DNA from: Longimicrobiales bacterium
GTDB taxonomy: Bacteria > Gemmatimonadota > Gemmatimonadetes > Longimicrobiales > Gaopeijiaceae
Direction of reading: 5' to 3'
Assembly (NCBI GenBank): GCA_965237965.1
Contig: CBDEGT010000002.1
Span: 77,496 to 141,495 of the forward strand
Length of the DNA: 64,000 nt
The translations under genes and the position numbers were made by a program. Numbering within the stretch: position 1 is the first letter of the stretch; every line of letters starts with the position of its first letter. Shown piece after piece: positions 11,005 through 52,422 of this stretch. The notes beneath the pieces are model-generated. The model was not told where the DNA came from. It saw only the letters and a program-made list of their open reading frames with translations, and made no database searches.

Positions 11005-13432
<2,428 letters not shown>

Positions 13433-17014: not shown

Positions 17015-17490
17015 CTACGGCGCTACCACTGGCGTCGGCGCCACGAGGCTCATCCTGATCCTCCACGAACCGTCCGCGTCTTTCGTCAACGCGTTCATGT
17101 AGTTCCCGGACGCCTTCACCGGCTCACCGTCCGGGGGCGTCACGTCGACCTCGTACGTTCCCGACGCCACTGCTGATTTTCCATCCTCGGCAATGAACGT
17201 CTCATCAGGTTGAATGGCGAGAGACTGGCTCCCACCGTCGAAACCCGCCTGGATTGCTATCGCGATGGCGTCCCTGTCGCGGTCGGGAGCTTGTCCAGGG
17301 AACATGCGGACCGCCTCCATCGTGTATAGCTCGGCGAGTCCTCCTGAGTCCTTGTTCCCGAAGAGTTGAACGTAGGTATCACCCAGAGCGGTGATCGCCG
17401 TCCTTTCGGCGTTAAGGTCGACCTGAGGCCCCGATGGAGCGCAGGTCGCGAGCAGCACTGAAAGGGACAGGGCCAGGACACGGATGCTCA
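17015..17490 (-). CDS. lipoprotein with SnoaL/NTF2-like (DUF4440-like) fold
   Basis: GTG start VSIRVLALSLSVLLATCAPS lipobox. Small alpha+beta protein pattern. Low-confidence domain call. Confidence 0.45.
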
Positions 17491-17739
17491 CGGAATCCCT
17501 CCTGTGGTCGGCAGGGTCACGCAGCGCGTCGGCTGTGGCTGAGCGAGTATAGCGCGCGGATCTCGTCGCCGCATGCTGGAGTCTGGGGCCTGCGCCGGGC
17601 GGGCGGGATGGCAAGGCCAGGCGGCGGATGCCATCAGGCCCCCGCCGGCTCGTGGGAGGACCTCAGGTGTTGGGCGACGGAGACCTCGCCGGGACCCGAG
17701 GTGGTCGCCGGGCGTGGGGGGTTGGCGGCTGGTTGGGAG

Positions 17740-17890
17740 GGCGCTCGATGCGGTAGCGGCCTTCTAGGGCCGCGTTCAGGCGGGTGACGGGATCGGGCTT
17801 GTTCACCTGCCCAAGATGCCGGTCAGGGCGGTAAACCGCGAGAAAGCTCCGATACACGAGGGCGAGCGAAGGATCACGGCCAGCAAGGTG
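17740..17890 (-). repeat. kinase-5' module, copy C (includes ~80 bp of conserved upstream promoter-like sequence)
   Basis: Encodes ..[20 protein letters not shown]. Upstream part ..caagatgccggtcagggcggtaaaccgcgagaaagc..ggatcacggccagca is shared with copies E and F. Confidence 0.6.
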
Positions 17891-18716: not shown

Positions 18717-18841
18717 GGGTCCTCCTCAGGAGTGGGAAGGTTCGGGGTGTGATGCACCCAACGATCCGTTGCGCGGAGGATGCGCACCTACTGAATCGCC
18801 CCGGGATTGCCGGAGACTCCACCTCTTGAGAGGATGGGGTC

Positions 18842-21310
<2,469 letters not shown>

Positions 21311-26762: not shown

Positions 26763-27686
26763 AAGCAGGTTCGCGAAGCCCAGGAGCAGCGCGATCCGTT
26801 CCATGTTCTTGGCCAGCCCGCGGTAGCGAACCTTCCGGTAACCGAAGCGGCGCTTCACATACAGGAACGGGTGCTCCACCTTTGCCCGCACCGAGGCCTT
26901 GTCCCGCTCGCGCAGCCACCGCGCCCCGCCCTGCTCCAGGAGCCGCCGCCGCCCCGGTCTCATCGCCACATGCCACTGCACCGGACGGCCTCCCGTGTCC
27001 ACCCACTTCTCGATCCCCCGGTAGCCCGCGTCCGCCCACACCTCCTCCTCGCCGCCGTGAAGCAACGCCCCCGCCTCCCGAAGATCGTGCGTGTTCGCCG
27101 GCGTCGCCCGCACGCCATGCACCAGTCCCGTCTCCGCGTCCACCCCGATGTGCGCCTTCATCCCGAAGTGCCACTCGTTGCCCTTCCTCGTCTGATGCAT
27201 CTCCGGATCCCGCGCCCCCTCCCGGTTCTTCGTCGATGACGGCGCCGCGATGATGCTCGCGTCCACGATCGTCCCCGCCCGCACCCGGTAGCCCCGCTCC
27301 GCCAGGTGCGCGTTGATCTCCTCGAACAAACCACGCCCCAGCCTGTGCCGCTCCAGCAGGTGCCGAAAGTTCAGAATCGTCGTCTCGTCCGGCAGCGGAC
27401 CCGTCAAACGCAGCCCCGCGAACCGCCGCACCGACTCGATCTCGTACAGCATGTCCTCCATCCCCGGGTCGCTCAGGTTGTAGAACAGCTGCACGCAGTG
27501 AATCCTCAGCATCGCCGCCAACGGGTACGGCTGCCGCCCCCGCCCCGCCTTCGGATACAACGGCCGAATCCGCGCCTCCAGACGCTCCCACGGAATCAGC
27601 GCCTCCATCCGCTCCAGAAACAGCTCCCGCCGCGTCCGCCGCTTCTTCCCCTCGTACTCCACATCCGCGAACGTCACCTGCTCCAT
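26751..27686 (-). CDS. IS5 family transposase (IS5-A copy 2); last ~7 codons altered by the IS5-B insertion
   Basis: Identical to 2151..3101 up to ..FANLL, then GKL* instead of VAGRYSTA*. Confidence 0.8.
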   Translation of the reverse strand: MEQVTFADVEYEGKKRRTRRELFLERMEALIPWERLEARIRPLYPKAGRGRQPYPLAAMLRIHCVQLFYNLSDPGMEDMLYEIESVRRFAGLRLTGPLPDETTILNFRHLLERHRLGRGLFEEINAHLAERGYRVRAGTIVDASIIAAPSSTKNREGARDPEMHQTRKGNEWHFGMKAHIGVDAETGLVHGVRATPANTHDLREAGALLHGGEEEVWADAGYRGIEKWVDTGGRPVQWHVAMRPGRRRLLEQGGARWLRERDKASVRAKVEHPFLYVKRRFGYRKVRYRGLAKNMERIALLLGFANLLGKL

Positions 27687-27948: not shown

Positions 27949-28242
27949 TCAGTGCGGCGCGAACGCGCTCAGGACGGGGTCTTGAGCTGGATTGTTGGGA
28001 TAGTTGTGCAGCGGCAGGATGTGCGGGTGCTGCAGGTTCGCGGTCGTCTTGATCTCGGCCAGGAACCGCTCGGCCCCGACTACAGCGGCTAGCTCAGGTT
28101 TCAGAACCTTGAGCGCGACCTTGCGCTCGTGCCGGAGGTCGTCGGCCAGGTAGACCGTCGCCATCCCGCCCTCGCCGAGCTGGCGCTCGATGCGGTAGCG
28201 GCCTTCGAGAGCCGCGTTCAGGCGGTCAGGCACATCGCTCAT
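27949..28242 (-). pseudogene. Ser/Thr protein kinase N-terminal fragment (97 codons; kinase-5' module copy D plus ~60 further kinase codons)
   Basis: [74 protein letters not shown] then divergence and stop. Contains the kinase Gly-loop and VAIK Lys. Confidence 0.7.
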
Positions 28243-28479
28243 GCTGACTCCCAGGGAGAACGGAGTCCTAGGCCATGCAGCGATCTATTATCTATAGGGA
28301 GGCGGCTACAGTTTGGGATGAGAAGGGGGGGATGGCCAGCCTCCCGGCCACGGAGTCGCAAGACTTCAAGCGCTCCAGAACGCAAACGGGCTCAATGGCC
28401 CCAATCGACCGTGGGAGACTGGCCAAATGGACACTACCCCCAAGCAGGTGACCGGTGTCGACGTAAGCGATCGCTTTAG

Positions 28480-29686
28480 GGAAGCTCTGAACAAGACGGG
28501 TGTAGTTTCGTGGTATGAAACGACCGGGGAGCTGTGAGCGGGCCATGGAGCTTCAGATGACTTTTGCGGAACTGGAGTACGATTCGAAGAAGCGGCGGAC
28601 GCGCCGGGAGATCTTCCTGGAGAAGATGGAGGGGCTGATTCCCTGGCAACAGCTGGAGGATCGGATCGAGCCGTTCTATGCGAAGGCTGGCCGTGGCCGC
28701 CGCCCCTATCCGCTTGGGGTGATGCTGCGGGTTCATTGTGTGCAGCTGTTCTACAACTTGAGCGATCCGGGCATGGAGGATCTGCTCTACGAGGTGGAGT
28801 CGGTGCGCCGCTTTGCGGGTCTGCGCCTGAGCGGTCCTTTGCCGGACGAGACGACGATCCTGAACTTCCGCCACCTGCTGGAGACGCAGGGCTTGGGGAT
28901 GGGGTTGTTCGAGGAGATCAATGTGCATCTGGCGTCTCTCGGGCATCGGTTGAAGACGGGGACGATCGTGGATGCGAGCATCATTGACGCGCCGTCGTCG
29001 ACGAAGAACCGCAGGGGAGAACGGGATCCGGAGATGCACCAGACGAAGAAGGGAAACCAGTGGTACTTCGGGATGAAGGCGCATATCGGGGTGGACGCCG
29101 AATCGGGTCTGGCGCACAGCTTGGCGACGACGGCCGCCAACGCGGCGGACGTGACGCAGGCGTGCGTGCTGCTGCATGGTGACGAGACGGAGGCATGGGG
29201 CGACGCGGGCTACCAGGGTGTGGACAAGCGCCCGGAGAACAGGGGTTGCGGCGTCGCCTGGCAGGTGGCGATGAAGCCGGGCAAGCGTCGCCTGCTCGAT
29301 CGGGACGGCGCCGAGGCGGCGGCCGAGAAGCGCAAGGCATCGGTGCGGGCGAAGGTGGAGCATCCGTTCTTGTATGTGAAGCGGCGCTTCGGGTACGGTA
29401 AGGTGCGCTACCGGGGACTGGCGAAGAACACGCAGCGCATCGCGTTGCTGCTCGGGTTCTCGAATCTGCTCATCGCTGGCCGCTACGCGACCGGATAACG
29501 CGGGGCCCATGCGCCCATGGGCCGCGCGAGGGCGGGAGCCGGACACATCGAAGCGACTTCCTGACGGTTCGGACCGTTTATCCGGCGCGCCAGCCAACAC
29601 TTCATCGCTCCGATAGGCCTTCGTAACCGGATCTTCGAACCGCAACCGATCGCGTTCCTCCCAAAATGGGGTTGTTCAGACCTTCC
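28480..29686 (+). mobile_element. IS5-B copy 2 (1207 bp), 4-bp TSD TTAG, inserted in the 5' end of the IS110 transposase gene
   Basis: TTAG at 28476..28479 and 29687..29690. IRs as in copy 1. Confidence 0.85.
28545..29498 (+). CDS. IS5 family transposase (IS5-B copy 2)
   Basis: Identical protein to 25743..26696. Confidence 0.85.
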   Translation: MELQMTFAELEYDSKKRRTRREIFLEKMEGLIPWQQLEDRIEPFYAKAGRGRRPYPLGVMLRVHCVQLFYNLSDPGMEDLLYEVESVRRFAGLRLSGPLPDETTILNFRHLLETQGLGMGLFEEINVHLASLGHRLKTGTIVDASIIDAPSSTKNRRGERDPEMHQTKKGNQWYFGMKAHIGVDAESGLAHSLATTAANAADVTQACVLLHGDETEAWGDAGYQGVDKRPENRGCGVAWQVAMKPGKRRLLDRDGAEAAAEKRKASVRAKVEHPFLYVKRRFGYGKVRYRGLAKNTQRIALLLGFSNLLIAGRYATG

Positions 29687-32582: not shown

Positions 32583-32712
32583 GACGGTCGCCATCCCACC
32601 CTCACCGAGCTGGCGCTCGATGCGGTAGCGACCTTCGAGGGCCGCGTTCAGGCGGGTGACGGGATCGGGCTGGTTCACCCGATCAAGATGCCGGTCAGGG
32701 CGGTAAACCTAT
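32583..32712 (-). repeat. kinase-5' module, copy E, directly upstream of floA (fragment ORF stop overlaps floA ATG: ATGACTGA)
   Basis: Encodes [36 protein letters not shown].. then out-of-family sequence. Confidence 0.6.
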
Positions 32713-33408: not shown

Positions 33409-33502
33409 ATCACTCTCAAGGGGCCGGGTGGCGCGTTTTGCGAGTCAAGCCGAGGTTCACGTCCGTGGCATCTGCAGCTCATCGAAGCACGCTGATCCAT
33501 AC

Positions 33503-33685
33503 CGTCGCCATCCCGCCCTCACCGAGCTGGCGCTCGATGCGGTAGCGACCTTCAAGGGCCGCGTTCAGGCGGGTGATGGGATCTGGGCGGTTCACCCGAT
33601 CAAGATGCAGGGCAGGACAGCGAACCGCGAGAAAGCCCCTATATACAGGGGGGTGAGCGGAGGATCACGGCCAGCAGGCAGGCAG
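33503..33685 (-). repeat. kinase-5' module, copy F (longest; includes conserved upstream region), upstream of DUF2911 gene
   Basis: ..ccatcccgccctcaccgagctggcgctcgatgcggtagcgacc..ggatcacggccagcaggc. Confidence 0.6.
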
Positions 33686-36455: not shown

Positions 36456-37201
36456 CTACCGCGACCAAACGTTGTTGTCGTACTGTCGTCTCGAGTCATC
36501 GTTCACCCATTGCACGTAGGGACTCGAGTTCCAGTAACCGGTGTCGAGTACCCGAGCTATTGGCATCACCATTATTGACTTAGCACCCATATTTGCTAGT
36601 GCTCCAGCGGCACTGATGGCGGTCCCACCCGTGACCCATGTGTCCTCAACCAGGAGGACTCGCTCCCCGTCCGCACTCTCGCCGTCGCTGACGAAGCACT
36701 GGGGGCAGTAGGAGCCGCGGGTAGCAACCATGTCATCGTGGGGTTGGTACTCCAGCAACGGGACGAGCTTTTCCCGTAACGGTACCATCATCGCGAGTGC
36801 CTGCCGAAGCGGTTGGTCCATGAAGCTCCTTCCGCGCTTTGATGGTACGGGCGTCACTACTGTCACTTCCCCGCCTAGAAGTGCTTCGATATCTTCCCTG
36901 TTGGAGGCCAAGAACATCCACAGGACAGACACGAGTTGAGCTCGGTACTCCGGATGTCCGGCCTTGTAGTTCGCCATCTTGTTGTACCAAGCGCCAGGCC
37001 GCAGCGCGATGCTCACCGGAACAACTGATTGTAGCGTGTCCGCGGTGCCCCAGTACCACACAATCGTGTACAGGCTGGACAGTAGTTGTATCTATCGCCC
37101 TTCGGTCCCAAGCAACCTGGGCAAACCCAAGATTCAGCAACTGGCGCTACTTGTCTAAGATCTTGGACCACCGCTTGGAAGAATTCACAGACACTAGCCA
37201 C
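36456..37201 (-). pseudogene. ComF/ShosT-like phosphoribosyltransferase-domain protein (N-terminal CxxC..CxxC zinc ribbon + type I PRTase), frameshifted between the two parts
   Basis: Frame 1 (37013..37201): ..WVCPGCLGPKGDRYNYCPACTRLCG. Frame 2 (36456..37061): ..VTVVTPVPSKRGRSF..ERVLLVEDTWVTGGTAISAAGAL (PRPP-binding loop). Confidence 0.6.
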
Positions 37202-37209
37202 CCAAGCTG

Positions 37210-38161
37210 CTACGCGGTCAGGCTCAGTTCTGGTTCATTCTGAGCCTCGAGTCTCTCAAGGATTTCATTTGTTGACCCGACCTCAATCGCCACCGCCCCG
37301 TATGCTCCGTCCTCGACGTACTCCCTCGCCCACTCATACGACTCCACAAGGGATTTGAGTAGAAAGACCGCCCGTCCATGCTGCATCGCGACTCGGGCCT
37401 GCATTCGGGCTCCAGAGGTTTTACTCGCCTCGACCACGACGGTTGTGAGTGAAAGCCCAGACATCACGACATTACGCATGGGGAACGTCCAACGACGCGG
37501 GGTTTGGTGGGGAAAAAACTGACTCAATAGCGCCCCACCAGCATCCACGATTCGCGTGGCGAGTTTCCTGTTTACGGACGGATAGCAATGATCCAGGCCG
37601 GTTCCCATGACGGCGACCGTCCGACCGCCGGCCTCAAGTGTACTAGTGTGAACAGCCGTGTCGATACCGGCGGCCAACCCCGAGTTGATCGTAAACCCCG
37701 CTTCGGCTAGTTCAGACGCGAGAAGAGTTGCCCTCTTCAGCCCCGCGTCGGTCGCGTTCCTCGTGCCGACGATCGCAATAGACCTCGAGTCCATCTGCTC
37801 CCTCCAACTACCCTGCAGAAAGACTATTGGGGGGCGATCGAAGATTGAGTGAAGGTTATGGGTAGCATGGGTCTAGCACTGACCGAACGTCGATTCCTCG
37901 CTCGAGCCAGTCGTCGACGGCTATACGAGCTTCGTCGAGCTCATCAGAGGAAACGGTTCCTGCCAACCCACAATTAACCTCCGGGGTGCTGAACAGCACG
38001 TCATCCAGCGTCAGTTGGATGAGTTCCACAGCTGAGCCCACAAGGTCTATCAGCGTCGCGAGCTGGTCAACCCTGACTGGCTTTATTGCGGCTCTAATTA
38101 GAGCCGCAATAGCAGTTAGCTCGTCGCGGCGGTCGCCAGGGCTCAGATCCTTGAGGTCCAA
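37210..38161 (-). pseudogene. DprA/Smf-family (DNA-processing protein A-like, Rossmann/SLOG) protein, split by a frameshift in the linker
   Basis: N-part ..AVDDWLERGIDVRSVLDPCYP*. C-part frame reads ..NLHSIFDRPPIVFLQGSWREQMDSRSIAIVGTRNATDAGL..NSGLAAGIDTAVH.. The two frames overlap at 37856..37875. Confidence 0.65.
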
Positions 38162-42185: not shown

Positions 42186-43865
42186 CTACGGTTCCTTACG
42201 GACACGCACACGATATCCCGTGCTGAGGTCCTCAAGCACCTCGACGGTCAGGCCGATCGCCGGATCCTGGAAGGTAGATACCCGTTCCTCTCCGACATTG
42301 AACGCGACTCGATTGGCCGGCTCACAATGGTTGACAATGTCAGGTTGAGCCTGCTGAATCCAAATCGGCACGTCACCGCTCTCTACGTTGCCGTCCACGG
42401 AATAGACCAACACGCCTTCTTGGCAGATCCGCGCGTCAAAGCCGATGCGCTTCCGCGCCTCTATCACGTAAGCTGTCGTTTCGCTCGTTGGGATCACAAT
42501 CGCCTGAAACTCGTCGGGTTGCTCGAACGTGAACACGGTCCTCTCGAACTCACCGAAGGTGATGCAATCGACGTCCTCGTCCAGCACCCATCCTATCTTC
42601 CACTTATGCCAGACCAAGAAGTGGGCAAGGGGGGTTGCAAATGGGAGGCTCATCGGGTCCCAGGCGCCGACTGGCGACATGTTCTCCCAAAAGTCTTCGG
42701 GGTTCGCGCCACCAAGGTCGGGGAGACCGAAGAGGTGCCCGATTTCGTGCACCAGGATGTTGTAGCTGTCAACATCGGTGGCGCCATGCCGGACTTCCAC
42801 TCCGTCGACGGACACGCCGGCGCCAGACTGCTCAGCGTATGAGCTGGTAAATGAGTTGGTAGCGTTCGCGAGTGAGTTCTTTGGGACGACGATGTGGACC
42901 AGGTCGAACTGCGTGAAGTCCACTGAGGCATCTGCCGCATGGATGGCGTCAATTACCCATTCCCAATGGGTACGCACTTCATAGTACTCCATGGGGTGAG
43001 GCAGACGAATCCAGTTCGGAGTTGATTCCGCGGTATTCACCATGCGGCCGTTCGAAGCTTCCGAAAACCACTCCTCGGCCAGCGTCCAAATCTCATCGAA
43101 GACCAGTTCCGTCGAATCAGTTCCCGGAAAGTCAGGGAAGTCCACGAAGAGAACGAGTGATCGCACCACGCCAACGGGACGGAAATACTTCTCCGGCCGA
43201 TGCACAAAGGCCTCCTGTTTGATCCCCTCGATCTTGCAGGTCTCGATGGGAACCGGGTCCGAGACGGCTATGAGGCGGGAACCGACCACACCATCCGTCG
43301 TGGCGAAAACGTCGGCGGCCCCGTAGGCAATCCCTGTTACAACACCCGTTGGGCTGACTTCGACGATCTGCCCATCCGAGGATTCCCATGTGATCGACTT
43401 GTCCTCAACCCGTGTTCCCCCTAGGTCCAACGCCTCAGCAGTTAGCTGGGCGGTTTGCCCTGGCGGGATCATGACCCCCGCGTTGGATCCGATGGATACG
43501 GAGGCGACCATCTGCTCGACCGTGATGGACGCGGACCCGCTCACCGGACCTGCGGTGGCAGTAATCGTGGTGGTCCCGTTTCCGATGGTCTTGACGAGGC
43601 CGCTTGAGGCATCCACGGTCGCAACGCCGACGTTCGATGACGACCAGGCGAATGACTGACCCGAGATCGGGGTCCCTGAAGCGTCTTTCGCGACCGCGCT
43701 GAATTGTTGATCGACGCCGACGGATGCCAAGGTCTGCTCAGACGGTGAAACTTCGATAGTGGCGACTACTGGCTGCGTTGGGCCGGACGGTCCTGCGGGT
43801 TCCTTATCGCCCCCACAGGCACCGACCAGGAGGACAGACAGAGAGACGGACAACACTGTCGCCAT
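42186..43865 (-). CDS. M6-like zinc metalloprotease lipoprotein with Big_2 (bacterial Ig-like) domains. Its ATG and the 26 in-frame codons upstream are supplied by kinase-5' module copy G
   Basis: MATVLSVSLSVLLVGACGG lipobox, Ig-like ..TATIEVSPSEQTLASVG..TITATAG.. repeats, and zincin motif ILVHEIGHLFGLPDLGG. Confidence 0.65.
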   Translation of the reverse strand: MATVLSVSLSVLLVGACGGDKEPAGPSGPTQPVVATIEVSPSEQTLASVGVDQQFSAVAKDASGTPISGQSFAWSSSNVGVATVDASSGLVKTIGNGTTTITATAGPVSGSASITVEQMVASVSIGSNAGVMIPPGQTAQLTAEALDLGGTRVEDKSITWESSDGQIVEVSPTGVVTGIAYGAADVFATTDGVVGSRLIAVSDPVPIETCKIEGIKQEAFVHRPEKYFRPVGVVRSLVLFVDFPDFPGTDSTELVFDEIWTLAEEWFSEASNGRMVNTAESTPNWIRLPHPMEYYEVRTHWEWVIDAIHAADASVDFTQFDLVHIVVPKNSLANATNSFTSSYAEQSGAGVSVDGVEVRHGATDVDSYNILVHEIGHLFGLPDLGGANPEDFWENMSPVGAWDPMSLPFATPLAHFLVWHKWKIGWVLDEDVDCITFGEFERTVFTFEQPDEFQAIVIPTSETTAYVIEARKRIGFDARICQEGVLVYSVDGNVESGDVPIWIQQAQPDIVNHCEPANRVAFNVGEERVSTFQDPAIGLTVEVLEDLSTGYRVRVRKEP

Positions 43866-43950
43866 CCCGCCCTCACCGAGCTGGCGCTCGATGCGGTAGC
43901 GGCCTGACAGGGCTGCGTTCAGGCGGGTGACGGAGTCAGGCATTAGTTGC
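43856..43950 (-). repeat. kinase-5' module, copy G (fused in frame to the metalloprotease gene)
   Basis: [30 protein letters not shown].. The kinase GGMATV supplies the lipoprotein start. Confidence 0.6.
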
Positions 43951-43994
43951 TGCCCTTACGTTGGCGAAGCTCCCCGAACGGCTTGCCCCGATCC

Positions 43995-44815
43995 TCAGTA
44001 GCGCAGCATCCGACGCCGTGGGACGAGGTTTGGCCGACCAAGAAACGCGTATTGGATGTTCTTGACGTAGTTGCTGAAGATACGTCGAACCTGGTAGCCC
44101 GCGACGCCGCGGAGATCCTGCACCCAATCGGTGACGGACTGGGGGCTTCCTCTGAGGAGTACGGATGACGCGAGGAAGTCAGCCTGCTGCGAGCTAGTCT
44201 GGTTGGACAGATAGTACTCCAGGCTTGAACGCCTGGCGTAGTTTCTGAGCTGGAATCGAGGGATCGTGCTTTCCCTGAACGTCGAGATGGCATCATTGAT
44301 GATCCTCATCGATTCATCGGGATCCACGGTGCTTACGTAGATCCCCCCTCCGCTAGCTGCTCGGTCTACTATTTGTGCCCCCGCTGCATAGGACAGTCCC
44401 CTCGCCCTGATTTCGTTGGAGACGGACCCGGCAAGGATTCTCACCGCGACCTGGAACGCAGGGTAGTGTTCATGTGTGCTCGTCGGCCCCCCGAAGTAGC
44501 CGAGGATGTAATTTGTCGGGAGATCGCGAGCCTCTACGGGTTGTAATTTGTCGGGAGATCGCGAGCCTCTACTCTGAGCCCCGGGTCCTCTTTCGCCCAG
44601 GGTTGTGGAAGCTGCCAAGAGTAGGAGCCGACCGGGAGCGCCCTAAGCGTACTCCTGATCGCGGATTCGACGGCGGATCGATCGATCGCGCCGACTACAG
44701 ACAGCAGCATCCTGGAGCGAATAAACTGCTCGCCGTGATAGGACCTACCACACGAATGCGTGGCGACACTTCGGGGTGCGGCCACCGACTGGAGATCCGC
44801 ACCCTGAACGAACAC
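43995..44815 (-). pseudogene. M16-family (insulinase-like) peptidase, C-terminal non-catalytic domain only; 5'-truncated and frameshifted by a ~35-bp tandem duplication
   Basis: ..LLSVVGAIDRSAVESAIRSTLRALPVG.. and ..FQVAVRILAGSVSNEIRARGLSYAAGAQI.. Direct repeat GTAATTTGTCGGGAGATCGCGAGCCTCTAC appears twice around 44510..44575. Confidence 0.6.
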
Positions 44816-45067: not shown

Positions 45068-45586
45068 TTAAGTGTTTGAGCGATACGAGAGCAGTGACGT
45101 TGGGTGATGCGGGTCATGCATCGGCCAGGTGCCCGTTTCGCGAGTGACTCGCGGAGGGAAGTAAGGAAGCGAACATGTCGCGGGCGGAGTCGGGTCGAGG
45201 CGCTGGTGAGGCTGCTCTTCGCCGATTCTATGGAAGCAACATCTTCCGTCCTTGAAGGCCCTAGTCCGCGTGCCGGGGTCGTACCGACTACGTCGGACGG
45301 TTCGAGTGTGCTGAAAGAGCCTCGGCGCAGCCCGAACGGGGGCCAGCATCAAGAGTGCCCGCTCTATGGCGACCAGGTGGACGATGACCTCGACGGCCTC
45401 GGCTTCCGCGTAGTAGGTGTTGGCCCAGCGGGCGATCTGGTTGAGGTTGTTGCCGATGCGCGTGACCGGCCGGCGCACCAGATCCGACAGCGTCAACCCT
45501 GCGGAGCGCGCCTTCGCGTGCCACTCGGCACGCTCCGCCTCGCTGGCGCGAATCTTCAACCACACGTCGCGTCCAGCGCCCCTCAT
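45068..45586 (-). CDS. MobC-family mobilization (relaxosome accessory) protein
   Basis: ..WLKIRASEAERAEWHAKARSAGLTLSDLVRRPV.RIGNNLNQIARWAN.. The RIGNNLNQIAR motif is the MobC hallmark. Confidence 0.6.
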   Translation of the reverse strand: MRGAGRDVWLKIRASEAERAEWHAKARSAGLTLSDLVRRPVTRIGNNLNQIARWANTYYAEAEAVEVIVHLVAIERALLMLAPVRAAPRLFQHTRTVRRSRYDPGTRTRAFKDGRCCFHRIGEEQPHQRLDPTPPATCSLPYFPPRVTRETGTWPMHDPHHPTSLLSYRSNT

Positions 45587-45673
45587 GTGCCGTTGCCGTT
45601 GGGAGGGTCGAAGGGGGCACAGCCCCTCGCCAGCCCCTGCCGGGGACCCGCGAAGCGTGGCCCCAAAGGGTAG

Positions 45674-45708
45674 GCTGGCTCATGACAGGTAACGGGTCAT
45701 GAGCCAGC
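45674..45708. other. perfect 13-bp-stem hairpin GCTGGCTCATGAC-aggtaacgg-GTCATGAGCCAGC, 4 bp downstream of int1 stop
   Basis: Read directly. Candidate terminator or recombination (att core-type) site. Confidence 0.6.
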
Positions 45709-45711
45709 GTC

Positions 45712-46896
45712 TCAGCGGATCGGTTCGGCCTCCGGGTCTCGACGCTTGCCAGCGAGATACGCGGCCCAAGCCTGCATGACCTCGCGCCTCCGGTCCAGCA
45801 GGTCCGAACGGGCGTAGGCGGCCTCGGCCTGACTGCGGACCTTGTGTGCGAGCGCCGCCTCCGCCACCTCGCGCGCCACGCCCGTCTCCGAGCACCAGTC
45901 GCGGAACGAGGACCTCATCCCGTGGGGCGTTCCTGCGATGCCGAGACGCCGGAGCAACTTGCTGAACATCGAGGCGTGGATCCTTCCTCCCTTCGCGCCC
46001 CGGAACACGATCCCGCCGCCGCCGTGGAGCTTCCGGGCTTCCTCGAGGATCTCCAAGGCCCGCCCCGACAGGGGAACCCGGTGCTCGCGCTTCGCCTTCA
46101 TGCGGTCGGCGGGAATGGTCCAGACATCGAGCTCGACCTCGTCGCACGCCGCGCCCCGGACCTCGTTCGAGCGTGTCGCGGTCAGGACCATGAACTCGAA
46201 CGCCAGCCGGACACCGGCATGGGACTCCGAGTCGCGGACCTTGGCCAGAGCCGCCGCCACCTCGCCGTGCGGGAGCGCCTTGTGATGCCGGATGGCGTTG
46301 CCGTTACGCGGCAGCGCGGCGGCGATGGCGTCCCCCGCCGGGTTGTCCGGCCGGTAGCCCTTCGCGACGGCCCACTTCATCACCGCGCCGATCCGCTGGT
46401 GCACGGCCCTCGCGGTCGCGGGCTTGCTCGACCAGATGGGCTTGAGGATGGCGAGCACGTCGGCCGTCGCGACCTCGCTCACGCGCTTCCGGCCGATGCG
46501 CGGATGGGCGTAGTCCCGCAGCGTCTGCCGCCACTGCCCGGCCATGCGGGATGGGTTCTTCCAGGTCGGCGAGTGGATCGCCATCACCTTCTCGACGGCC
46601 GCCTCGAAGGTGGGAACCCCCGCGTCTCTCGGGTCGTGGCCCCAATGGACCGCCCGCCTGTACTCCAGCGCCTTCTCCCTCGCCTCCCTGAGCGTCACGA
46701 CCGGGTACGAGCCCAGTCCGAGATTGGTGGGCTTCCCCGCCACTCGAATGCGCTGGCCCCAAGACTTGGAGACGCGCCCGGACTTCATCCGGTGGACGCG
46801 GAGGTACAGGCCGAGCCCGCCGAGCCCGCCGTCGCCGTAGCGTCCCGGCGTCTTCACCCGCGCCACGAAGGCGGCCGTAAGGGGTCGTTTACGCAT
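45712..46896 (-). CDS. tyrosine-type site-specific integrase (P4-like, N-terminal DUF4102 arm-binding domain)
   Basis: ..RYGDGGLGGLGLYLRV.. (DUF4102) and C-terminal ..HGMRSSFRDWCSETG..LAHKVRSQAEAAYARSDL.. (R..H..R..Y catalytic region). Confidence 0.85.
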   Translation of the reverse strand: MRKRPLTAAFVARVKTPGRYGDGGLGGLGLYLRVHRMKSGRVSKSWGQRIRVAGKPTNLGLGSYPVVTLREAREKALEYRRAVHWGHDPRDAGVPTFEAAVEKVMAIHSPTWKNPSRMAGQWRQTLRDYAHPRIGRKRVSEVATADVLAILKPIWSSKPATARAVHQRIGAVMKWAVAKGYRPDNPAGDAIAAALPRNGNAIRHHKALPHGEVAAALAKVRDSESHAGVRLAFEFMVLTATRSNEVRGAACDEVELDVWTIPADRMKAKREHRVPLSGRALEILEEARKLHGGGGIVFRGAKGGRIHASMFSKLLRRLGIAGTPHGMRSSFRDWCSETGVAREVAEAALAHKVRSQAEAAYARSDLLDRRREVMQAWAAYLAGKRRDPEAEPIR

Positions 46897-47062
46897 GCGG
46901 TGTATCCTACCTGTGTATCACATATCGACGGATACACAATGGTACAATACGGTACGTACCGGCACAAGAGGGAGCCTGTAAACACGGCTCGGATACGCCG
47001 TATCACATTGTAATAACACACTTTACGGAACACTACGGGACCGCATGGGACGATGTTCGCGA

Positions 47063-47607
47063 TCATACTGTTGTACTTGTGACAGAAGTCGCCCTTGACC
47101 TCGAGCACGAGGGCGCTCGCCCGGCGGGCGGGACGGTCGGCCTGCCAGGAGAGGAGCTGCTCCGGACGAACCGGAGGGCCTGCCAGCGATCGATCCGGAG
47201 ATAGGCGGAGATCTGGGCGCGGGTGAACACGCCGCTGTGGAGACAAGCCAGGGCGATCCACTCGGCTTGGCGTCCCGTCCAGCCGAACGCTTCGAGCGCG
47301 TCTTCCCGTCCCCTGAGATGCGCGATCATCGCGGCGCTTCCGTGACCAGAGCCCGGTCGGCCTGCAGGTAGGTGATGAGGATGCCCATCGGGTTGTAGAC
47401 GACGAGCTCGGAGGGGATGACGGTGAGGAAGGTGAACCGGAGCGTGATCGACCACCGCTCCCTCAGGGTCTCCTGCCCCTGCCGGAGGTGGACCAGGTCG
47501 AAGTCGGCGGTCGCGCCGTGGGGTGCCTCCGGTGCGGGGTGGATGCGGAGCACGACCTGCTCGACCTGGAGTTCGGTGTCGGCGGTGCCGGCCGCCATGG
47601 CGGCCAC
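47063..47607 (-). CDS. hypothetical protein between the two integrase genes; two overlapping frames, possibly frameshifted. wHTH-like ..LACLHSGVFTRAQISAYLRIDRWQALRFVR
   Basis: ORFs 47326..47607 and 47063..47455. No family recognised. Confidence 0.3.
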
Positions 47608-47917
47608 CTCGGCGCCGTCACGCGTGAACGCGGCGTTCGCCAGCTCGGTCGAGAGGAAGCGGAGACTCCGGGTCCAGTGCTCCTCGACCGTGGCCCGGCG
47701 GCGCGAGTAGAAATCGGCATGAAGCGGTTCAGGAAGAACTTTGCCGATGACGTTCCAAGACGGCCCGTAACGACCCGTAGTAACCCTATAACCTCTTAAA
47801 CTACAGCGTGTTGCGTTACATAGGCTGAGTCGATTCGTCTATTGCCGTGCCGGGACACCTATTGTATTCTCCCTTGAATAGTGTACTATAAAGTGATCCG
47901 CAGCACGGGAGAATACG

Positions 47918-49072
47918 ATGGCACGGCGACCGGCAACCCTTACTGCCGCCTTCGTACGGACGGTGAGCAAGCCCGGCGTTTACGGCGACGGACGCGGCTC
48001 GCGCGGCCTGAGCTTGCGCGTTCACCGGATGAAGAGCGGCCGGCTATCGCGCACATGGAGGCAACGGTTGCGCGTCGCGGGGCGGCTGACGACGACCGGG
48101 CTCGGCCGGTATCCCGAAGTCTCGTTGGCGGAAGCCCGGCACAAGGCCATTGAGAACGCGCGGGCCATCGGCCAGGGTGTGGACCCGCGCGGCGGCGGCG
48201 TCCCGACGTTTCGCGAAGCCGCCGAAGAGACGATCCGGCTACACGCCGAATCGTGGAAAGCCGGCTCGCCGCTCCCCGGGGAATGGCACTCGACGTTCAG
48301 GCTGTACGCCACGCCGATCCGGGACAAGCCGGTGGACCGGATCACGTCGGGCGACGTGCTGGCGTGTCTCCGGCCGGTATGGAACGTGAAGCCAGCCGCC
48401 GCGCGGAAAGCCCGGAACCGGCTCCGCGTGGCATTTCGCTGGTGCGTCGGACAAGGCTACATCTCGACGAATCCCGTGGACCGCGCAGTGGCCGCGCTCC
48501 CGAAGGTCAACGGCAACGGCACGACGCACCATCGCGCGCTCCCGCACGGTGAGGTTCCAGACGCGCTCCGGCGCATTCGGTCGGCCGACGCCCCGGAATC
48601 CGCGCGGCTCGCCGTCGAGCTGATCGTCTTGACGGCGGCGCGCTCCGGCGAAGCGCGCGCCGCGACGTGGGACGAAATCGACACGGCGGTGAAGGTTTGG
48701 ACGATCCCGCCGGCGAGAATGAAAGCCGGCCGGGAGCATCGCGTGCCGCTGTCCAGCGGCGCGCTCGACGTGCTGCTGCGCGCCAGCGAGCTTGCCGGCG
48801 ATTCGCCGTTCGTCTTCCCGACGCGGGCCGGCCGCGCGCTGTCCTCGAAATCCACTTACTGGGTGCTCCAGCTGGCCGGTGTCACCGGGACGACGCTGCA
48901 CGGTTTCCGAACGTCGATTCGTGTCTGGATGGCCGAAACCGGCGTGGACCGCGAGACGGCGGAAGCCGTGTTGGCTCACGTCGTGCGCGGCACCGAGGGC
49001 GCGTACATGAGATCGGACCTGCTGGCGCGCCGGTGCGAAGTCATGCAGGCATGGAGCGCCTATGTCGCATAG
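47918..49072 (+). CDS. tyrosine-type site-specific integrase, paralogue of int1 (~50% aa identity), divergently oriented
   Basis: ..VYGDGRGSRGLSLRV.. DUF4102, and ..LHGFRTSIRVWMAETG..LAHVVRGTEGAYMRSDL.. Confidence 0.85.
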   Translation: MARRPATLTAAFVRTVSKPGVYGDGRGSRGLSLRVHRMKSGRLSRTWRQRLRVAGRLTTTGLGRYPEVSLAEARHKAIENARAIGQGVDPRGGGVPTFREAAEETIRLHAESWKAGSPLPGEWHSTFRLYATPIRDKPVDRITSGDVLACLRPVWNVKPAAARKARNRLRVAFRWCVGQGYISTNPVDRAVAALPKVNGNGTTHHRALPHGEVPDALRRIRSADAPESARLAVELIVLTAARSGEARAATWDEIDTAVKVWTIPPARMKAGREHRVPLSSGALDVLLRASELAGDSPFVFPTRAGRALSSKSTYWVLQLAGVTGTTLHGFRTSIRVWMAETGVDRETAEAVLAHVVRGTEGAYMRSDLLARRCEVMQAWSAYVA

Positions 49073-49089
49073 TACGCGGAAGGATGGAC

Positions 49090-49642
49090 CAGGGTGGCGC
49101 TCAACGTAGACGAAGCCACGCAGCTCCTCCTTCGCATAGGCCGGTGAGCCGAACCCGTCGGCGATCCCTTGGGTGAGCGTGGCGCGGTTCATCCGCTCGG
49201 GATGGCCGGTGCTGTGCCCCAGCTCGTGCAGCGCGGTCTGGTAGTAGTGGTTCGCCGAGGGGAACTGCACCCGCTCGGGCAGCACGATCTCGTCGCGGTT
49301 CAGGTTGTAGAACGCCCGATCGCCGGCCACGTGACGGACGGGGACCCCGCTGTCTTCCAGCACCCTCTCGGCCTGCTGGTGCGCCTTCCAGAGCGGCTCG
49401 GCAGCGGGCGCGGGCCGGGCCGGCAGCCCGTCGGCCTGCTCGGCGTTGAAGACGGTGTACTGCCGGACGACAGGCGCGCGCATCCGCTCGTGGCGGTAGA
49501 CGCGCTTGCCCTCGGCGTCCCTCCTGGGCCGTCCGCGCTCGTCGGTGACGGTGATCCGCCGGTGGTCCTGGTGCCGTTGGCGCTGATTCTCTAGCCACAA
49601 CGCGACCGGAGTGCTGCGGCGCCCCCCCCCCCCGAAAAACAC
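49090..49642 (-). pseudogene. ArdC-like protein (ssDNA-binding N-domain remnant + zincin-like metallopeptidase domain), 5'-truncated at a C12/G12 tract
   Basis: ..RVYRHERMRAPVVRQYTVFNAEQADGL.. (ArdC N-domain end) and ..HYYQTALHELGHSTGHPERMNR..FGSPAYAKEELRGF.. (HExxH). The long ORF continuing to 48239 is a spurious antisense of int2. Confidence 0.6.
49622..49633. repeat. homopolymeric C12 (G12 on reverse strand) tract at the 5' junction of the ArdC-like gene
   Basis: gcggcgCCCCCCCCCCCCgaaaaac read directly. Confidence 0.7.
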
Positions 49643-49722: not shown

Positions 49723-52422
49723 ATGGCCCTGTTCGGTATCCGGAAATCGCTCCGCCCATCTGCCGCCGAGCTTCCGCTTGCACTCCAGGAACTGCTGGGT
49801 GAAGTAAAAGAGGAGAAGGCGGAGCTCGAGGTTGTCCTCGAGCGGGTGCGCAGGGCCGCCAAGTCCATGAGCAAGGTGGACAAGCAGCTCGTCGATGTGG
49901 CGAGGCGCCAAGAGGCGTTCGGCGAGGTGCTAGCATCGGCTGAGAGCCGCGCTGACAGCGTCTCCGAGCTTTCTGACGAGGTTGCCCGAGCTCGTGACTG
50001 CGCGGCTGAGCTGGAGCAAGGCCAGGGCGAGGCTGGGGAGGGACTCGCTCAGATACGCGAAGAGATGGGGTCTTTCGAAGGGGAGATTACCGGGATCAAG
50101 GCTGCCCTCATGGAGGCGCGCAAGGTGCGCGCCGACGTGGAGGGGTTGGCCGGGCCGGCGGGCACGGTGGACCAGCTCAAGCAGAAGTCGGAAGAAGTGG
50201 GCGAGCGGCTCAAGGACGTGCGGGAAGGTCTCCATGCCGTAGAGGAGACTCAGGAGACGCTGCGGAAGGGGCAGGCGGTGGAGCAGGGCGAGCTCGAGGA
50301 GCTACGCTCTCTATCGCAGCGCCTGGGACGCGAGGTGGAGGAGGCTTCCGCACGGCTGGCTCGTATGGAGGCTGCAACCTCCAAGGTGACCAAGGTAGGG
50401 GAGGTGGCGTCCCGGGTGGAGCAGCAGCTTCAGAACCTTAATGCGCTTGCCGAGCACGTCAGCCGCAAGACCGGGTCTCTCGAGGAGCAGCGCGAAGTCG
50501 TTGACCGGGCGGCCGCCCAGGCCGCCCGCCTGGACGATCTCGTGTGGGACGTGGACAAGAAGCTCAAGAAGGTCACCGAGGATTCCAAGGTGATCCAGAA
50601 GACGCAGAAGCGGATTCTCGGAGTACAGGAGCTGGTGCAACGGGTGGAGGAGCAGCTAGGCACCCTGAGGACGCGCGAAGAGAACGTGGCCCGGGAGGGC
50701 AGGGGTCTGGAGAAGCGGCTGGGCGAAATTCGTGACGAAATCGACGCCGGGCTCCAACGCTTCGAGATGGAGCGTAGTGGCCTGGATACGGTGAACACAC
50801 AGGTCCTCAGCCTGAGGAGCACACTCGGAGAGTTCGAGGGCCGGCGCTCAGACATGGAGAAAGCCACTCGCGATATGGCTGGGGCCACGGCGCGGGCGGA
50901 CGATTTGACCGCACGGCTGGCCACCCTCATGACAGACATGGGACGGGTGGACGAGCAGGCGGAGCGCGCACACGCCATGCGTTCCGTTTTGGAGCGGGCC
51001 GAGGCGTCCGCTGCGCGGGTGCGGGAGCAGGTTCAGAGCCTAGAGGACTCGCAACCGTCCCTGGACACGATGGCAGCTGACATCGTCGAGCTGAGCAAGG
51101 CGCACGACGGGGTCAACGATACGCTGGAACAGCTCAAGGAAGCCCGCGCCGAGGTGGAGCGGAGTCACGCCGCACAAGCGGACACCCGCTCCTGGCTGAC
51201 CCAAACGCAGACCCAACTCGATGAGTTGAGGACTCAGGTCGCGGACATGGACCTTGCCGGCGCGCGCATCGACGAGACGCGCACGGCGTTGGATGATCTC
51301 GCTGCGCGCAATGACCTGATCGAAGAGCGCAAGCGCTTGCTGACGTCCGTGGAAGAGAGGTTGAACGACCTCGGCATGCTGTCGAATAGCCTGGACGAGC
51401 GCATGAGCGTGATGGAATCGCATCGGGCTGCCATGACCGAACTCGAGGAACACGCTCGCGGGCTGAACGACCGACTCGATGATGCCGACCGTCGTTTCAA
51501 GCAGGTGGCCCAACGCGCCGAAGAAGCTGGACAGGTGGAGGGGCGTTTTGACGCCTTGGCGAAGCGCGTGGAAGGCACGGAGGACCGGATCCGGGAGGTC
51601 GATGCGACGGTTAGGTCAGCCGGCCTCCGTGCGGCCGACGTGGAGTCGCTCGGGGTCAAGATCGAGGCCGTAGGTCAGGAGCTGGAGACGCGCGAGAAGG
51701 CTCTACAGAGAGCGATGGCCGATCTGGGGCGTGCCACCGCCCTGCACAAGGACCTCTCGAAAGGGATCCGGGATCTGGAGGAACAGCAGCGGCGCGTGTC
51801 CCATGCGGCTGCTGCGGCGGGCGAACAGGCCTCCCTCATGGCAGAGCTGGCTGACCAGGTCGAGGGCAGGGTGGGCAACCTGCGCTTCGCGGAAAAGCGC
51901 ATCACCCAGTTCGAGGAGAAGCTTGCTGGCTTTTCGGCGGCCGAGCAGAGTCTGGAGCAAACGCTCCAGAACCTGGCCACACGGCAGGAAGGAGTGGACG
52001 CAGTGCGTGGAGAGCTGGATCAGTTATTCACCGCGGTGGAGGGCACGGTGAGCGACGTGAGGAGCATCACAGACGCGCGCCAGGAAATCCAGCGTTCTCG
52101 GGCCGTGCTCGACGATGTCCTCGAACGAGCGGCTCGTGTAGACGAGCTCGCGCTTGCAGTCGACAAGAAAAAAATGGAGATCGGCGACGCCGAGGAGCGC
52201 ATGGCGCGACTGGACACGCTCCTCAACGACATCCAGGGCAGTCTCGAGACGGTCCACAGCCAGAAGGCGGTGGTGGACGCGGTGCTCGAGAAAGCGGGGC
52301 AGCTGTCGTTCCAAGCGAAGGAGGCCGAGGCTCTGATCACTGCGCTCCGCGAAGAGCGCGACGTGGCGGCGCGCGTGCTGGAGGCGGTGCGCGAGGCGCG
52401 CGCGGAGAAGCGGGTCAGCTGA
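49723..52422 (+). CDS. 899-aa all-alpha coiled-coil protein (E/A/R/L-rich), no NTPase or other catalytic motifs
   Basis: Continuous heptad-like sequence across 2.7 kb. No Walker A and no MCP signature. Antisense frames have only short ORFs, so this frame is the coding one. Confidence 0.7.
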   Translation: MALFGIRKSLRPSAAELPLALQELLGEVKEEKAELEVVLERVRRAAKSMSKVDKQLVDVARRQEAFGEVLASAESRADSVSELSDEVARARDCAAELEQGQGEAGEGLAQIREEMGSFEGEITGIKAALMEARKVRADVEGLAGPAGTVDQLKQKSEEVGERLKDVREGLHAVEETQETLRKGQAVEQGELEELRSLSQRLGREVEEASARLARMEAATSKVTKVGEVASRVEQQLQNLNALAEHVSRKTGSLEEQREVVDRAAAQAARLDDLVWDVDKKLKKVTEDSKVIQKTQKRILGVQELVQRVEEQLGTLRTREENVAREGRGLEKRLGEIRDEIDAGLQRFEMERSGLDTVNTQVLSLRSTLGEFEGRRSDMEKATRDMAGATARADDLTARLATLMTDMGRVDEQAERAHAMRSVLERAEASAARVREQVQSLEDSQPSLDTMAADIVELSKAHDGVNDTLEQLKEARAEVERSHAAQADTRSWLTQTQTQLDELRTQVADMDLAGARIDETRTALDDLAARNDLIEERKRLLTSVEERLNDLGMLSNSLDERMSVMESHRAAMTELEEHARGLNDRLDDADRRFKQVAQRAEEAGQVEGRFDALAKRVEGTEDRIREVDATVRSAGLRAADVESLGVKIEAVGQELETREKALQRAMADLGRATALHKDLSKGIRDLEEQQRRVSHAAAAAGEQASLMAELADQVEGRVGNLRFAEKRITQFEEKLAGFSAAEQSLEQTLQNLATRQEGVDAVRGELDQLFTAVEGTVSDVRSITDARQEIQRSRAVLDDVLERAARVDELALAVDKKKMEIGDAEERMARLDTLLNDIQGSLETVHSQKAVVDAVLEKAGQLSFQAKEAEALITALREERDVAARVLEAVREARAEKRVS

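What the first reader, a model, noticed from the sequence alone, without database searches (positions are those of the whole stretch)
45068..49642. Remnant of integrative mobilizable element(s): mobC - int1 - hypothetical - int2 (divergent paralogue) - truncated ardC
A MobC-family gene, two P4-like tyrosine integrases (~50% identical, DUF4102 N-domains) transcribed divergently, and a 5'-truncated ArdC-like antirestriction gene. All are hallmarks of ICE/IME. The ~1-kb inter-integrase region has locally lower GC and operator-like inverted repeats just upstream of each int (TGTGTATC..GATACACA and CGGTACGTACCG before int1; GTATTCTCCC..GGGAGAATAC before int2). Head-to-head paralogous integrases suggest two elements integrated back-to-back at the same target, or an integrase duplication within one element. 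Conjugation and relaxase genes are absent, so only remnants remain.
Basis: partly seen in the sequence, partly recalled or inferred. Interest (0 to 1): 0.55.

Follow-up and report, generated by a model that had tools for sequence, protein, structure and literature searches.

The report
Decayed conjugative element with nested integrase
This stretch is the broken, no longer transferable leftover of a conjugative element common in Longimicrobiales (Gemmatimonadota) genomes, with a second, unrelated integrase module sitting inside its mating-pore gene virB8; this is ordinary mobile-element wreckage, not a new system.

Summary
These are a MobC-like gene, two intact P4-type tyrosine integrases (51% identical, divergent) and an ArdC fragment. 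The named inverted repeats are present too.

The "hypothetical" between the integrases is the 3' half of the T4SS gene virB8, plus stubs of two backbone ORFs.

Related Longimicrobiales loci carry the intact element, assembled here from several loci: virB4…trbL-virB8-h310-h218-int1-(h241)-mobC-MbeA-like relaxase, with T4CP-virB11-ardC further along.

The window keeps only about 2.4 kb of this backbone plus 0.46 kb of ardC. It holds no relaxase, T4CP or VirB4, and no tRNA or att repeat in 64 kb.

int2 belongs to a separate 1.39-kb unit (47727-49113). That unit is 93-98% identical in at least 8 other loci with other neighbours. Here it sits between ardC codon ~247 and virB8 codon ~92, where the rest of ardC and the upstream T4SS genes would be expected.

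Its left end joins virB8 at a short shared core (TTCCTGAACC). Two other loci have different islands inserted within about 60 bp of that point.

Verdict: a nested, then deleted, ICE remnant in an IS-ridden region. New member of a known kind; low to moderate interest.

The parts
45068..45586 (-). MobC/MbeC-like relaxase accessory gene, degenerate. Only 45335-45586 is homologous to relatives. It has a 21-codon in-frame deletion, and 45068-45334 is a foreign read-through tail.
   Evidence: Pfam MobC and NikA-like. tblastn to L001 MobC aa 1-105. Pairwise alignment. blastn homology ends at 45331.
45589..45681 (-). Last 31 codons of backbone ORF h241; the rest of the gene is deleted. This stretch is part of a repeat unit of about 80-120 bp (about 45561-45684) that recurs in both orientations in relatives.
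   Evidence: tblastn h241 aa 210-240 at 90%. Repeat copies listed.
45674..45708 (.). Perfect 13-bp inverted repeat with a 9-nt spacer (GCTGGCTCATGAC-N9-GTCATGAGCCAGC), immediately after the int1 stop codon. It could be a terminator or a recombinase site; function untested.
   Evidence: Sequence. RNA fold of 45590-45715: -62.2 kcal/mol, z = -3.2. In the 20-locus alignment it is kept in most relatives; some of them differ in arm and spacer bases yet still form a stem.
45712..46896 (-). int1: intact P4-type tyrosine integrase, 394 aa, the integrase of the ICE backbone.
   Evidence: Pfam. 100% identical cluster P0001. 85-98% identical copies next to T4SS genes in relatives. Catalytic motifs.
46897..47092 (-). 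int1 upstream region. It is AT-rich (GC 0.49) and carries the GTGTATC repeats and the CGGTACGTACCG palindrome. It overlaps the 3' stub of h218 (46962-47159).
   Evidence: The region, including TGATACA, is conserved across 12 loci. h218 aa 153-218.
47198..47329 (-). First 44 codons of backbone ORF h310; the rest is deleted.
   Evidence: tblastn, 77%.
47341..47715 (-). virB8/trbF 3' fragment (aa 94-218 of 222), with a 1-nt deletion near its 5' break. This is the only T4SS remnant.
   Evidence: tblastn 82% to L002 VirB8. Translation. Alignment.
47727..49113 (+). int2 unit: about 190 bp of AT-rich leader, int2 CDS 47918-49072 (384 aa, intact), and 41 bp beyond. The first 17 bp (the reverse complement of AAAGTTCTTCCTGAACC) resemble the virB8 site.
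   Evidence: 93-98% identical over exactly these coordinates in L003, L005, L085, L086/87 and L088, with other flanks (in L004 only to 49076). Pfam. Core alignment.
49109..49570 (-). ardC fragment, cut at both ends (aa 94-247 of 352). It includes the HELGH zincin motif.
   Evidence: Pfam MPTase-PolyVal positions 2-81/126. tblastn 73% to L020 ArdC. blastn 80-88% to L020/L032 ardC.

Best explanation
The region is the non-transferable wreck of one VirB/Trb-type integrative conjugative element (ICE) of a family that is multi-copy in Longimicrobiales genomes.

**What is left.** The backbone gene order, assembled from several related loci, is ardC ... virB4-...-trbL-virB8-h310-h218-int1-h241-mobC-relaxase. 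Only four pieces survive here:
- ardC codons ~94-247
- virB8 codons ~94-218
- stubs of h310, h218 and h241
- an intact int1 and a damaged mobC

**What int2 is.** A second, unrelated integrase module (int2) sits exactly where the rest of ardC and the upstream T4SS genes would be expected. In other loci this module lies beside variable cargo such as restriction and abortive-infection genes.

**Most likely history (inferred).**
1. An int2-borne island integrated by site-specific recombination into virB8, at a core resembling its own end (TTCCTGAACC). This inactivated the T4SS.
2. Later deletions or rearrangements in this IS-rich region removed the island's cargo, the T4SS genes up to ardC, and the relaxase/T4CP side.

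**Present state.** Both integrases are still intact, each with an AT-rich upstream region carrying inverted repeats (conserved across relatives for int1). They may therefore still be expressed and act in trans on sister elements. The locus itself cannot excise as a unit or conjugate.
For: **Shown**
- Domain content and integrity of the genes.
- Piece-by-piece homology to intact relatives.
- ardC, virB8, int1 and mobC all lie on the minus strand in the order ardC > virB8 > int1 > mobC. ardC being upstream of the T4SS block is not seen contiguously in any fetched locus.
- No VirB4, TrbL, T4CP, VirB11 or relaxase homologue in the 64-kb window. No tRNA or tmRNA.
- int1-type integrase lies next to T4SS genes in L002/L026, L017, L020, L025, L032 and L067, and there are 8 copies in one MAG.
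- The int2 unit is found at 93-98% identity in at least 8 other loci with unrelated flanks.
- The break at 47727 is shared with L003, where the flank is an ABC-2 permease.
- The unit's end AAAGTTCTTCCTGAACC compares with intact virB8 CAAGTATTTCCTGAACC.
- Independent islands are inserted in the same ~60 bp of virB8. L001 has an AIPR/DUF6946/integrase island with a 17-bp direct repeat. L077 has the virB8 5' half ending at AAGTA..GCCTGAACCGG, followed by hsdM/hsdS.
- The surrounding window is full of IS copies and truncated genes.
Against: - No direct repeat or reciprocal junction of the int2 unit exists in the window, so integration into virB8 cannot be proven here.
- Five to six other copies of the int2 unit extend ~50 nt further left than 47727 and lie next to different ICE fragments: a 5'-cut mobC in L088/89, and integrase fragments in L004/5. 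int2 placement may therefore reflect general recombination among multi-copy elements rather than a dedicated att site.
- The integration site and ends of the int1 ICE itself were not found. int1 lies between the T4SS genes and the mobC/relaxase or T4CP genes, not at an element end.
- The order ardC > T4SS is inferred from several partial loci, not from one complete element.
Confidence: 0.72

Rival explanations
1. int2 reached its position without integrase-mediated insertion into virB8. Instead, homologous or illegitimate recombination (or IS-mediated deletion) between scattered copies of ICE remnants and int2 units juxtaposed the pieces.
For: The window and relatives are extremely mosaic and IS-rich. 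The right joint to ardC at 49113 is unique to the window. int2 units lie beside several different ICE fragments in other loci. There are no flanking repeats.
Against: The left break falls at the same base of the unit in two unrelated contexts, the window and L003. It lies in a 10-bp identity with the virB8 target, and two further islands interrupt virB8 within ~60 bp.
Confidence: 0.22
2. One reading: two integrative elements inserted back-to-back at one chromosomal attachment site, or int1/int2 arose by duplication within one element.
For: The arrangement is head-to-head, and both are P4-type integrases with the same domain order.
Against: There is no tRNA, tmRNA or repeated att in 64 kb. The DNA between and beyond the integrases is ICE backbone (virB8, ardC), not a chromosomal target. 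The two share only 51% identity, and each has its own near-identical copies in different contexts.
Confidence: 0.04
3. The locus is still a working unit. One possibility is a small element mobilisable in trans by intact sister ICEs, using an oriT near mobC and one of the intact integrases. Another is a recombinase-driven switch.
For: Both integrases are intact, and the int1 upstream region is conserved across relatives. A conserved hairpin and a ~110-bp repeat unit lie between int1 and mobC, and the unit flanks the mobC-relaxase module in inverted copies in L001. That module occurs in both orientations in relatives.
Against: mobC is damaged. There is no relaxase, no att pair and only one copy of the repeat unit in the window. 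The neighbouring genes are fragments.
Confidence: 0.08

Closest known systems
VirB/Trb-type (MPF_T) integrative conjugative elements with a P4-type tyrosine integrase (for example the Tn4371 or ICEMlSym R7A kind; comparison from general knowledge)
   Same: Relatives carry trbC-virB3-virB4-virB9-virB10-virB6-virB8, a T4CP, VirB11, a relaxase and a tyrosine integrase with a DUF4102 arm-binding domain.
   Different: In this family int1 lies between the T4SS and mobilisation modules and is not next to a tRNA gene. The window copy has lost every transfer gene except half of virB8.
ColE1-type mobilisation module (MbeA relaxase with MbeC/MobC accessory protein)
   Same: The window MobC has the RHH (NikA-like) and MobC motifs. 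In relatives it overlaps a 506-aa relaxase whose best NCBIfam match is MbeA.
   Different: The MbeA match is far below the curated cut-off (87 versus 500 bits). The relaxase is absent from the window and mobC is damaged.
ArdC antirestriction protein of conjugative plasmids (IncW type; ArdcN ssDNA-binding domain plus zincin protease domain)
   Same: The relative L020 has both domains, and the window fragment keeps the HExxH protease motif.
   Different: The window copy is a 154-codon internal fragment without start or end.
Nested and accreted ICE/IME composites ('Matryoshka' structures) described in Firmicutes (PMC9585547; site-specific nesting of Tn1806 in ICESa2603-family ICEs, judged from the abstract of PMC12942858)
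   Same: One integrase-borne element lies inside another, fragmenting a conjugation gene. Degraded derivatives are common there too.
   Different: The phylum is different (Gemmatimonadota). The nested element here is reduced to its integrase, and neither element can be delimited by att sites.

Membership tests
P4-type (DUF4102) tyrosine integrases | N-terminal arm-DNA-binding domain, SAM-like central domain and C-terminal catalytic domain | tested here: met
   All three Pfam domains lie above the gathering score in both int1 and int2.
P4-type (DUF4102) tyrosine integrases | Catalytic R-K-H-R-H-Y residues | tested here: met
   The motifs TATRSNE/TAARSGE, RMKA(K/G)REH, HG(M/F)R, LAH and AY(A/M)RSD were located in both proteins. 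Assignment of the residues rests on general knowledge of the family.
P4-type (DUF4102) tyrosine integrases | Gene adjacent to its attachment site, usually the 3' end of a tRNA or tmRNA gene | tested here: not met
   There is no tRNA or tmRNA in the window. None lies next to int1-type genes in about 30 close relatives. A 56%-identical relative (L044) does sit beside tRNA-Pro.
   The only NCBIfam hit is the generic integrase domain PRK09692. An arm-binding domain is present.
Integrative conjugative element (functional) | Relaxase, coupling protein and VirB4-containing T4SS | tested here: not met
   tblastn with the family's own relaxase, T4CP, VirB11, VirB4 and TrbL found nothing in the window. 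Only virB8 aa 94-218 is present.
Integrative conjugative element (functional) | Flanking att direct repeats | tested here: not met
   No repeat of the junction sequences occurs anywhere in 64 kb.
Integrative mobilisable element | Integrase plus own relaxase/oriT, bounded by att sites | tested here: not met
   Only a damaged accessory gene (mobC) is present. There is no relaxase and no att. oriT was not identifiable.
ArdC | ArdcN domain plus complete MPTase-PolyVal domain | tested here: not met
   Only MPTase positions 2-81/126 were detected and no ArdcN hit. The full architecture is present in relative L020.
VirB8/TrbF | Full-length protein of about 220 aa with N-terminal TM segment and VirB8 domain | tested here: not met
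   The window holds aa 94-218 only, with a frameshift. Full-length relatives are listed with the precomputed Pfam domain PF04335.

The most novel reading that the evidence does not exclude
Codons ~78-95 of virB8 in this ICE family may be a dedicated landing pad for a guild of small integrase-borne islands. Their cargo includes type I restriction-modification and AIPR, and int2 here may be the stripped remnant of one. Such islands would parasitise and at the same time disarm the ICE, a route to ICE domestication in Longimicrobiales, many of whose related MAGs appear from their bin names to be sponge-derived.
Probability: 0.3. Interest if true: 0.5.

Novelty: new member of a known kind. Interest (0 to 1): 0.3.

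Why it matters
The finding documents an uncharacterised VirB/Trb-type ICE family in Gemmatimonadota (Longimicrobiales). The family is multi-copy within genomes and heavily decayed.

It also shows that integrase-borne islands repeatedly interrupt the family's virB8 gene. This is useful for annotating these MAGs and for studies of mobile-element turnover in IS-rich genomes of this kind. It does not reveal a new mechanism.

Tried and rejected
- **Exact-protein look-ups** of int1 and int2 found nothing.
- **att sites.** No second copy of any junction sequence, of the int2 end core, or of the ~50-nt arm seen in other int2 copies occurs in the window. No second core copy lies within the fetched flanks of the first three related int2 loci (L003-L005).
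- **tRNA/tmRNA target.** None in the window or beside close int1 relatives.
- **int1 'block' with sharp ends (45602-47092) as an independent mini-element.** Rejected. The upstream boundary reflects deletion variants of h310/h218. The downstream region stays alignable past the hairpin in most loci.
- **int2 unit as an IS-like element with fixed ends.** Rejected. The right break at 49113 is unique to the window, and other copies diverge at other points.
- **The 899-aa coiled-coil gene as ICE cargo.** It has no ICE linkage in relatives.
- **VirB8 database search for truncated copies.** It returned only full-length proteins among the 120 listed, so it gave no extra junctions.
- **Sigma-70 promoter scan of the region.** No sites found.
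- **Rfam.** Only IS3 frameshift pseudoknots elsewhere in the window.
Full report
**1. Check of the observation**

The minus-strand ORF 45068-45586 matches Pfam MobC (5.8e-11) and NikA-like (1.1e-8).

int1 (45712-46896, minus strand) and int2 (47918-49072, plus strand) each carry Arm-DNA-bind_3 (DUF4102), Phage_int_M and Phage_integrase domains. They are 51% identical and transcribed divergently. Both are as long as their closest database homologues (100% and 98% identity) and keep the tyrosine-recombinase catalytic motifs.

The minus-strand stretch right of int2 matches the ArdC zincin domain (MPTase-PolyVal, 2.1e-21) and contains HELGH.

The quoted inverted repeats exist. The int1 upstream region, including the TGATACA element, is conserved in 12 related loci.

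Four corrections are needed:
- The ArdC piece is cut at both ends. It covers profile positions 2-81 of 126, or aa 94-247 of a 352-aa relative.
- mobC has a 21-codon in-frame deletion. Its last ~8 codons are replaced by an 86-codon tail with no homology to relatives.
- Low GC (0.49) is limited to about 200 bp upstream of each integrase.
- The 'hypothetical' between the integrases is not anonymous (section 2).

**2. What the pieces are**

Integrase homologues led to loci in Longimicrobiales (Gemmatimonadota) metagenome-assembled genomes. Some related MAGs carry bin names that look like sponge-metagenome labels. The source was not checked.

In L002/L026 and L020 the int1 orthologue (87-88% identity) ends an intact T4SS operon: trbC-virB3-virB4-cagX(virB9)-trbI(virB10)-h264-trbL(virB6)-virB8-h310-h218-int1. 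L017, L025, L032 and L067 show the same virB4/trbL-virB8 block, with a shortened h310-h218 region.

Downstream of int1, L001 and L032 have h241, mobC and a 506-aa relaxase. The relaxase's best NCBIfam match is MbeA, well below the curated cut-off. L020 has T4CP, VirB11 and a complete ArdC with ArdcN and MPTase domains.

Mapped on this template, the window holds the following:

| Piece | Residues kept | Window coordinates |
|---|---|---|
| mobC | aa 1-105 | 45335-45586 |
| h241 | last 31 codons | 45589-45681 |
| int1 | complete | 45712-46896 |
| h218 | aa 153-218 | 46962-47159 |
| h310 | aa 1-44 | 47198-47329 |
| virB8 | aa 94-218 | 47341-47715 |
| ardC | aa 94-247 | 49109-49570 |

All of these lie on the minus strand in the order ardC > virB8 > int1 > mobC.

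tblastn with the family's own VirB4, TrbL, T4CP, VirB11 and relaxase finds nothing else in the 64 kb. There is no tRNA or tmRNA.

The locus is therefore a small central fragment of a T4SS-bearing ICE, not an IME.

**3. The ICE family**

int1-type integrases occur up to 8 times in a single MAG (CBDCNQ01 contigs 2 and 5). Many copies are surrounded by partial backbones. The family's VirB8 has over a thousand database relatives, and the 120 listed are 77-91% identical.

Close int1 relatives are never next to a tRNA gene. int1 lies between the T4SS genes and the mobC/relaxase or T4CP genes. I could not define the att site or the ends of the element.

A perfect 13-9-13 palindrome follows the int1 stop codon. 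It is kept in most relatives, and some differ in arm and spacer bases yet still form a stem. Whether it is a terminator or a recombinase site is open.

**4. The int2 unit**

Window 47727-49113 recurs at 93-98% identity in L003, L005, L085, L086/87 and L088, and to 49076 in L004. Its first 123 bp also occur in L089, where the unit is interrupted by an IS256-family (Transposase_mut) transposase gene. In every case both flanks are different.

Neighbouring genes in those loci include:
- a type ISP restriction enzyme (L004)
- KilA-N/BstA (L085)
- type I hsdS/hsdR (L088)
- IS elements

None of these neighbourhoods contains a T4SS. int2 is thus the integrase of a different, smaller kind of island.

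The right break at 49113 is unique to the window. L003, L005, L085, L086/87 and L088 continue with the same 41 nt.

The left break at 47727 is shared with L003, where the flank is an ABC-2 permease gene. The other copies continue for ~50 nt and then abut different sequences. Among these are a 5'-cut mobC (L088/89) and integrase fragments (L004/5).

**5. The virB8 joint**

Read in the virB8 direction, the sequences compare as follows:

| Source | Sequence |
|---|---|
| int2 unit end in the window | ...GGCAAAGTTCTTCCTGAACC\|GCTTCATGCCGATTTC |
| Intact virB8 (L017) | ...GACCAAGTATTTCCTGAACCGGTTCATCTCCGAC |
| L003 | the same AAAGTTCTTCCTGAACC, followed by unrelated DNA |

The unit's end and the virB8 site therefore share a 10-bp identity (TTCCTGAACC). 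The break lies within it, as expected for a tyrosine-recombinase crossover.

Two further loci interrupt virB8 close by:
- **L001** has a 5.1-kb island (DUF6946, AIPR, a 410-aa integrase) about 40 bp upstream. It is bounded by a 17-bp direct repeat, GCCTACGAGGCCGC(G/A)AC.
- **L077** keeps only the 5' half of virB8, ending ...AAGTA--GCCTGAACCGG. This is followed by hsdM/hsdS.

That makes three breaks within ~60 bp among eleven virB8 loci, which points to a hot spot. The sample was selected through int1, and the islands are not all of the same type.

**6. Context**

The window is a chromosomal region crowded with mobile DNA:
- four DDE_Tnp_1/DUF772 transposase copies
- two HTH_38/rve transposase copies (IS30-like by my reading)
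- two IS3-family copies
- single IS110-family, IS1595-family and IS21 (istA/istB) elements, and a fragment matching a Transposase_mut (IS256-family) gene of L002

It also holds truncated genes: half of an acrB, and fragments of HlyD and OEP genes. Large deletions and rearrangements are therefore expected here.

**7. Most likely history and present function**

The gene identities, the truncation points, the absence of transfer genes, the independent distribution of the int2 unit, and the shared core at the joint are shown directly.

The following steps are inferred:
1. An int2-borne island integrated into virB8 of a resident ICE copy, or of a tandem pair.
2. Deletions then removed the island cargo together with the DNA between ardC codon ~247 and the island.
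3. The relaxase/T4CP side was lost beyond mobC codon ~105.

The locus cannot conjugate or excise as a unit. The two integrases are intact, and each keeps an AT-rich upstream region with inverted repeats (conserved across relatives for int1). They may still act on sister elements.

The main rival is that int2 was placed by general recombination among the many ICE and int2 copies rather than by integration. I give it about 0.2.

**8. Comparison with what is known**

Function and parts match four known kinds:
- MPF_T-type ICEs with a P4-type integrase
- a ColE1-like MobC/MbeA mobilisation module
- plasmid-type ArdC
- the nested or accreted ICE/IME composites well described in Firmicutes (PMC9585547)

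Membership as a functional ICE or IME fails on relaxase, T4CP, T4SS and att sites. Membership in the P4-type integrase family is met on architecture and catalytic residues, but not on tRNA adjacency. The integrases gave no XerC/XerD hit.

**9. Verdict**

This is an ordinary, well-explained mobile-element remnant, and a new member of known kinds in an under-studied phylum.

The one feature worth a follow-up is the apparent recurrent targeting of virB8 by integrase-borne islands, some carrying restriction-modification or abortive-infection-type (AIPR) genes.

Interest 0.3.

Noticed in passing
window 11222-13484 and 18790-20971 (with 13762-17614 between): Inverted pairs of HTH_38/rve (IS30-like by my reading) elements (85% identical) and IS3-like elements (903 bp, 100% identical, each with an ALIL frameshift pseudoknot). 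They bracket TRAP (DctM), NMT1_3-family binding-protein and SnoaL-like genes. The arrangement looks like a composite transposon.
   Followed up: partly
window 782-907, 16889-17014, 17712-17837, 28154-28279, 32584-32709, 33501-33626, 43855-43980: Seven copies of a 126-nt repeat with an invariant core. On the minus strand it encodes ..[13 protein letters not shown](E/Q)[12 protein letters not shown], which by my reading is the N-terminus of Ser/Thr protein kinases. They appear to be scattered 5' stubs of kinase paralogues, several of them just upstream of unrelated genes.
   Followed up: partly
window 25555-26762 and 28479-29686; also 2177-2720 / 26762-27305: Two 1208-bp IS copies (DDE_Tnp_1/DUF772 transposase), 100% identical and in inverted orientation 1.7 kb apart. 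There are also further identical and 76%-identical copies. This indicates recent IS activity.
   Followed up: no
window 36456-37794 (-): Adjacent DprA/SLOG-like (DNA_processg_A, 194 aa) and phosphoribosyltransferase-like genes in the low-GC stretch beside an IS1595 transposase. Possibly a small conflict or defence pair.
   Followed up: no
window 966-1562 (-): AbiEii-type nucleotidyltransferase toxin fragment next to a fragment matching a Transposase_mut (IS256-family) gene of L002.
   Followed up: no
window 49723-52422 (+): 899-aa all-coiled-coil protein whose best NCBIfam match is the SpiroCoCo family. It is not linked to the ICE in related loci.
   Followed up: partly
L001 11958-12078 and 13979-14088; L005, L007, L019 versus L001, L032: In relatives the mobC-relaxase module occurs in both orientations relative to int1. 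In L001 it is flanked by inverted copies of the ~110-bp unit that lies between int1 and mobC in the window (45571-45681). This may be an invertible segment or an oriT-containing repeat.
   Followed up: partly
L088 5495-7197, L089 4041-7029, L086/L087 7727-11046: The int2 unit also sits directly against a 5'-truncated mobC (L088/89) and in tandem after an int1 copy (L086/87). int1-backbone and int2 units are therefore repeatedly juxtaposed in different permutations.
   Followed up: partly
window 44504-44572: A 34-35-bp tandem duplication (97% identical) in the low-GC DNA just left of the mobC tail. Origin unknown.
   Followed up: no
L032 16354-18777; L033 4165-9250; L006 7908-9074: Further integrase genes are embedded in or beside T4SS or mobilisation genes of this ICE family. 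Examples are a convergent pair after the relaxase (L032), one after a truncated trbL (L033), and one replacing virB8-h310 (L006).
   Followed up: no
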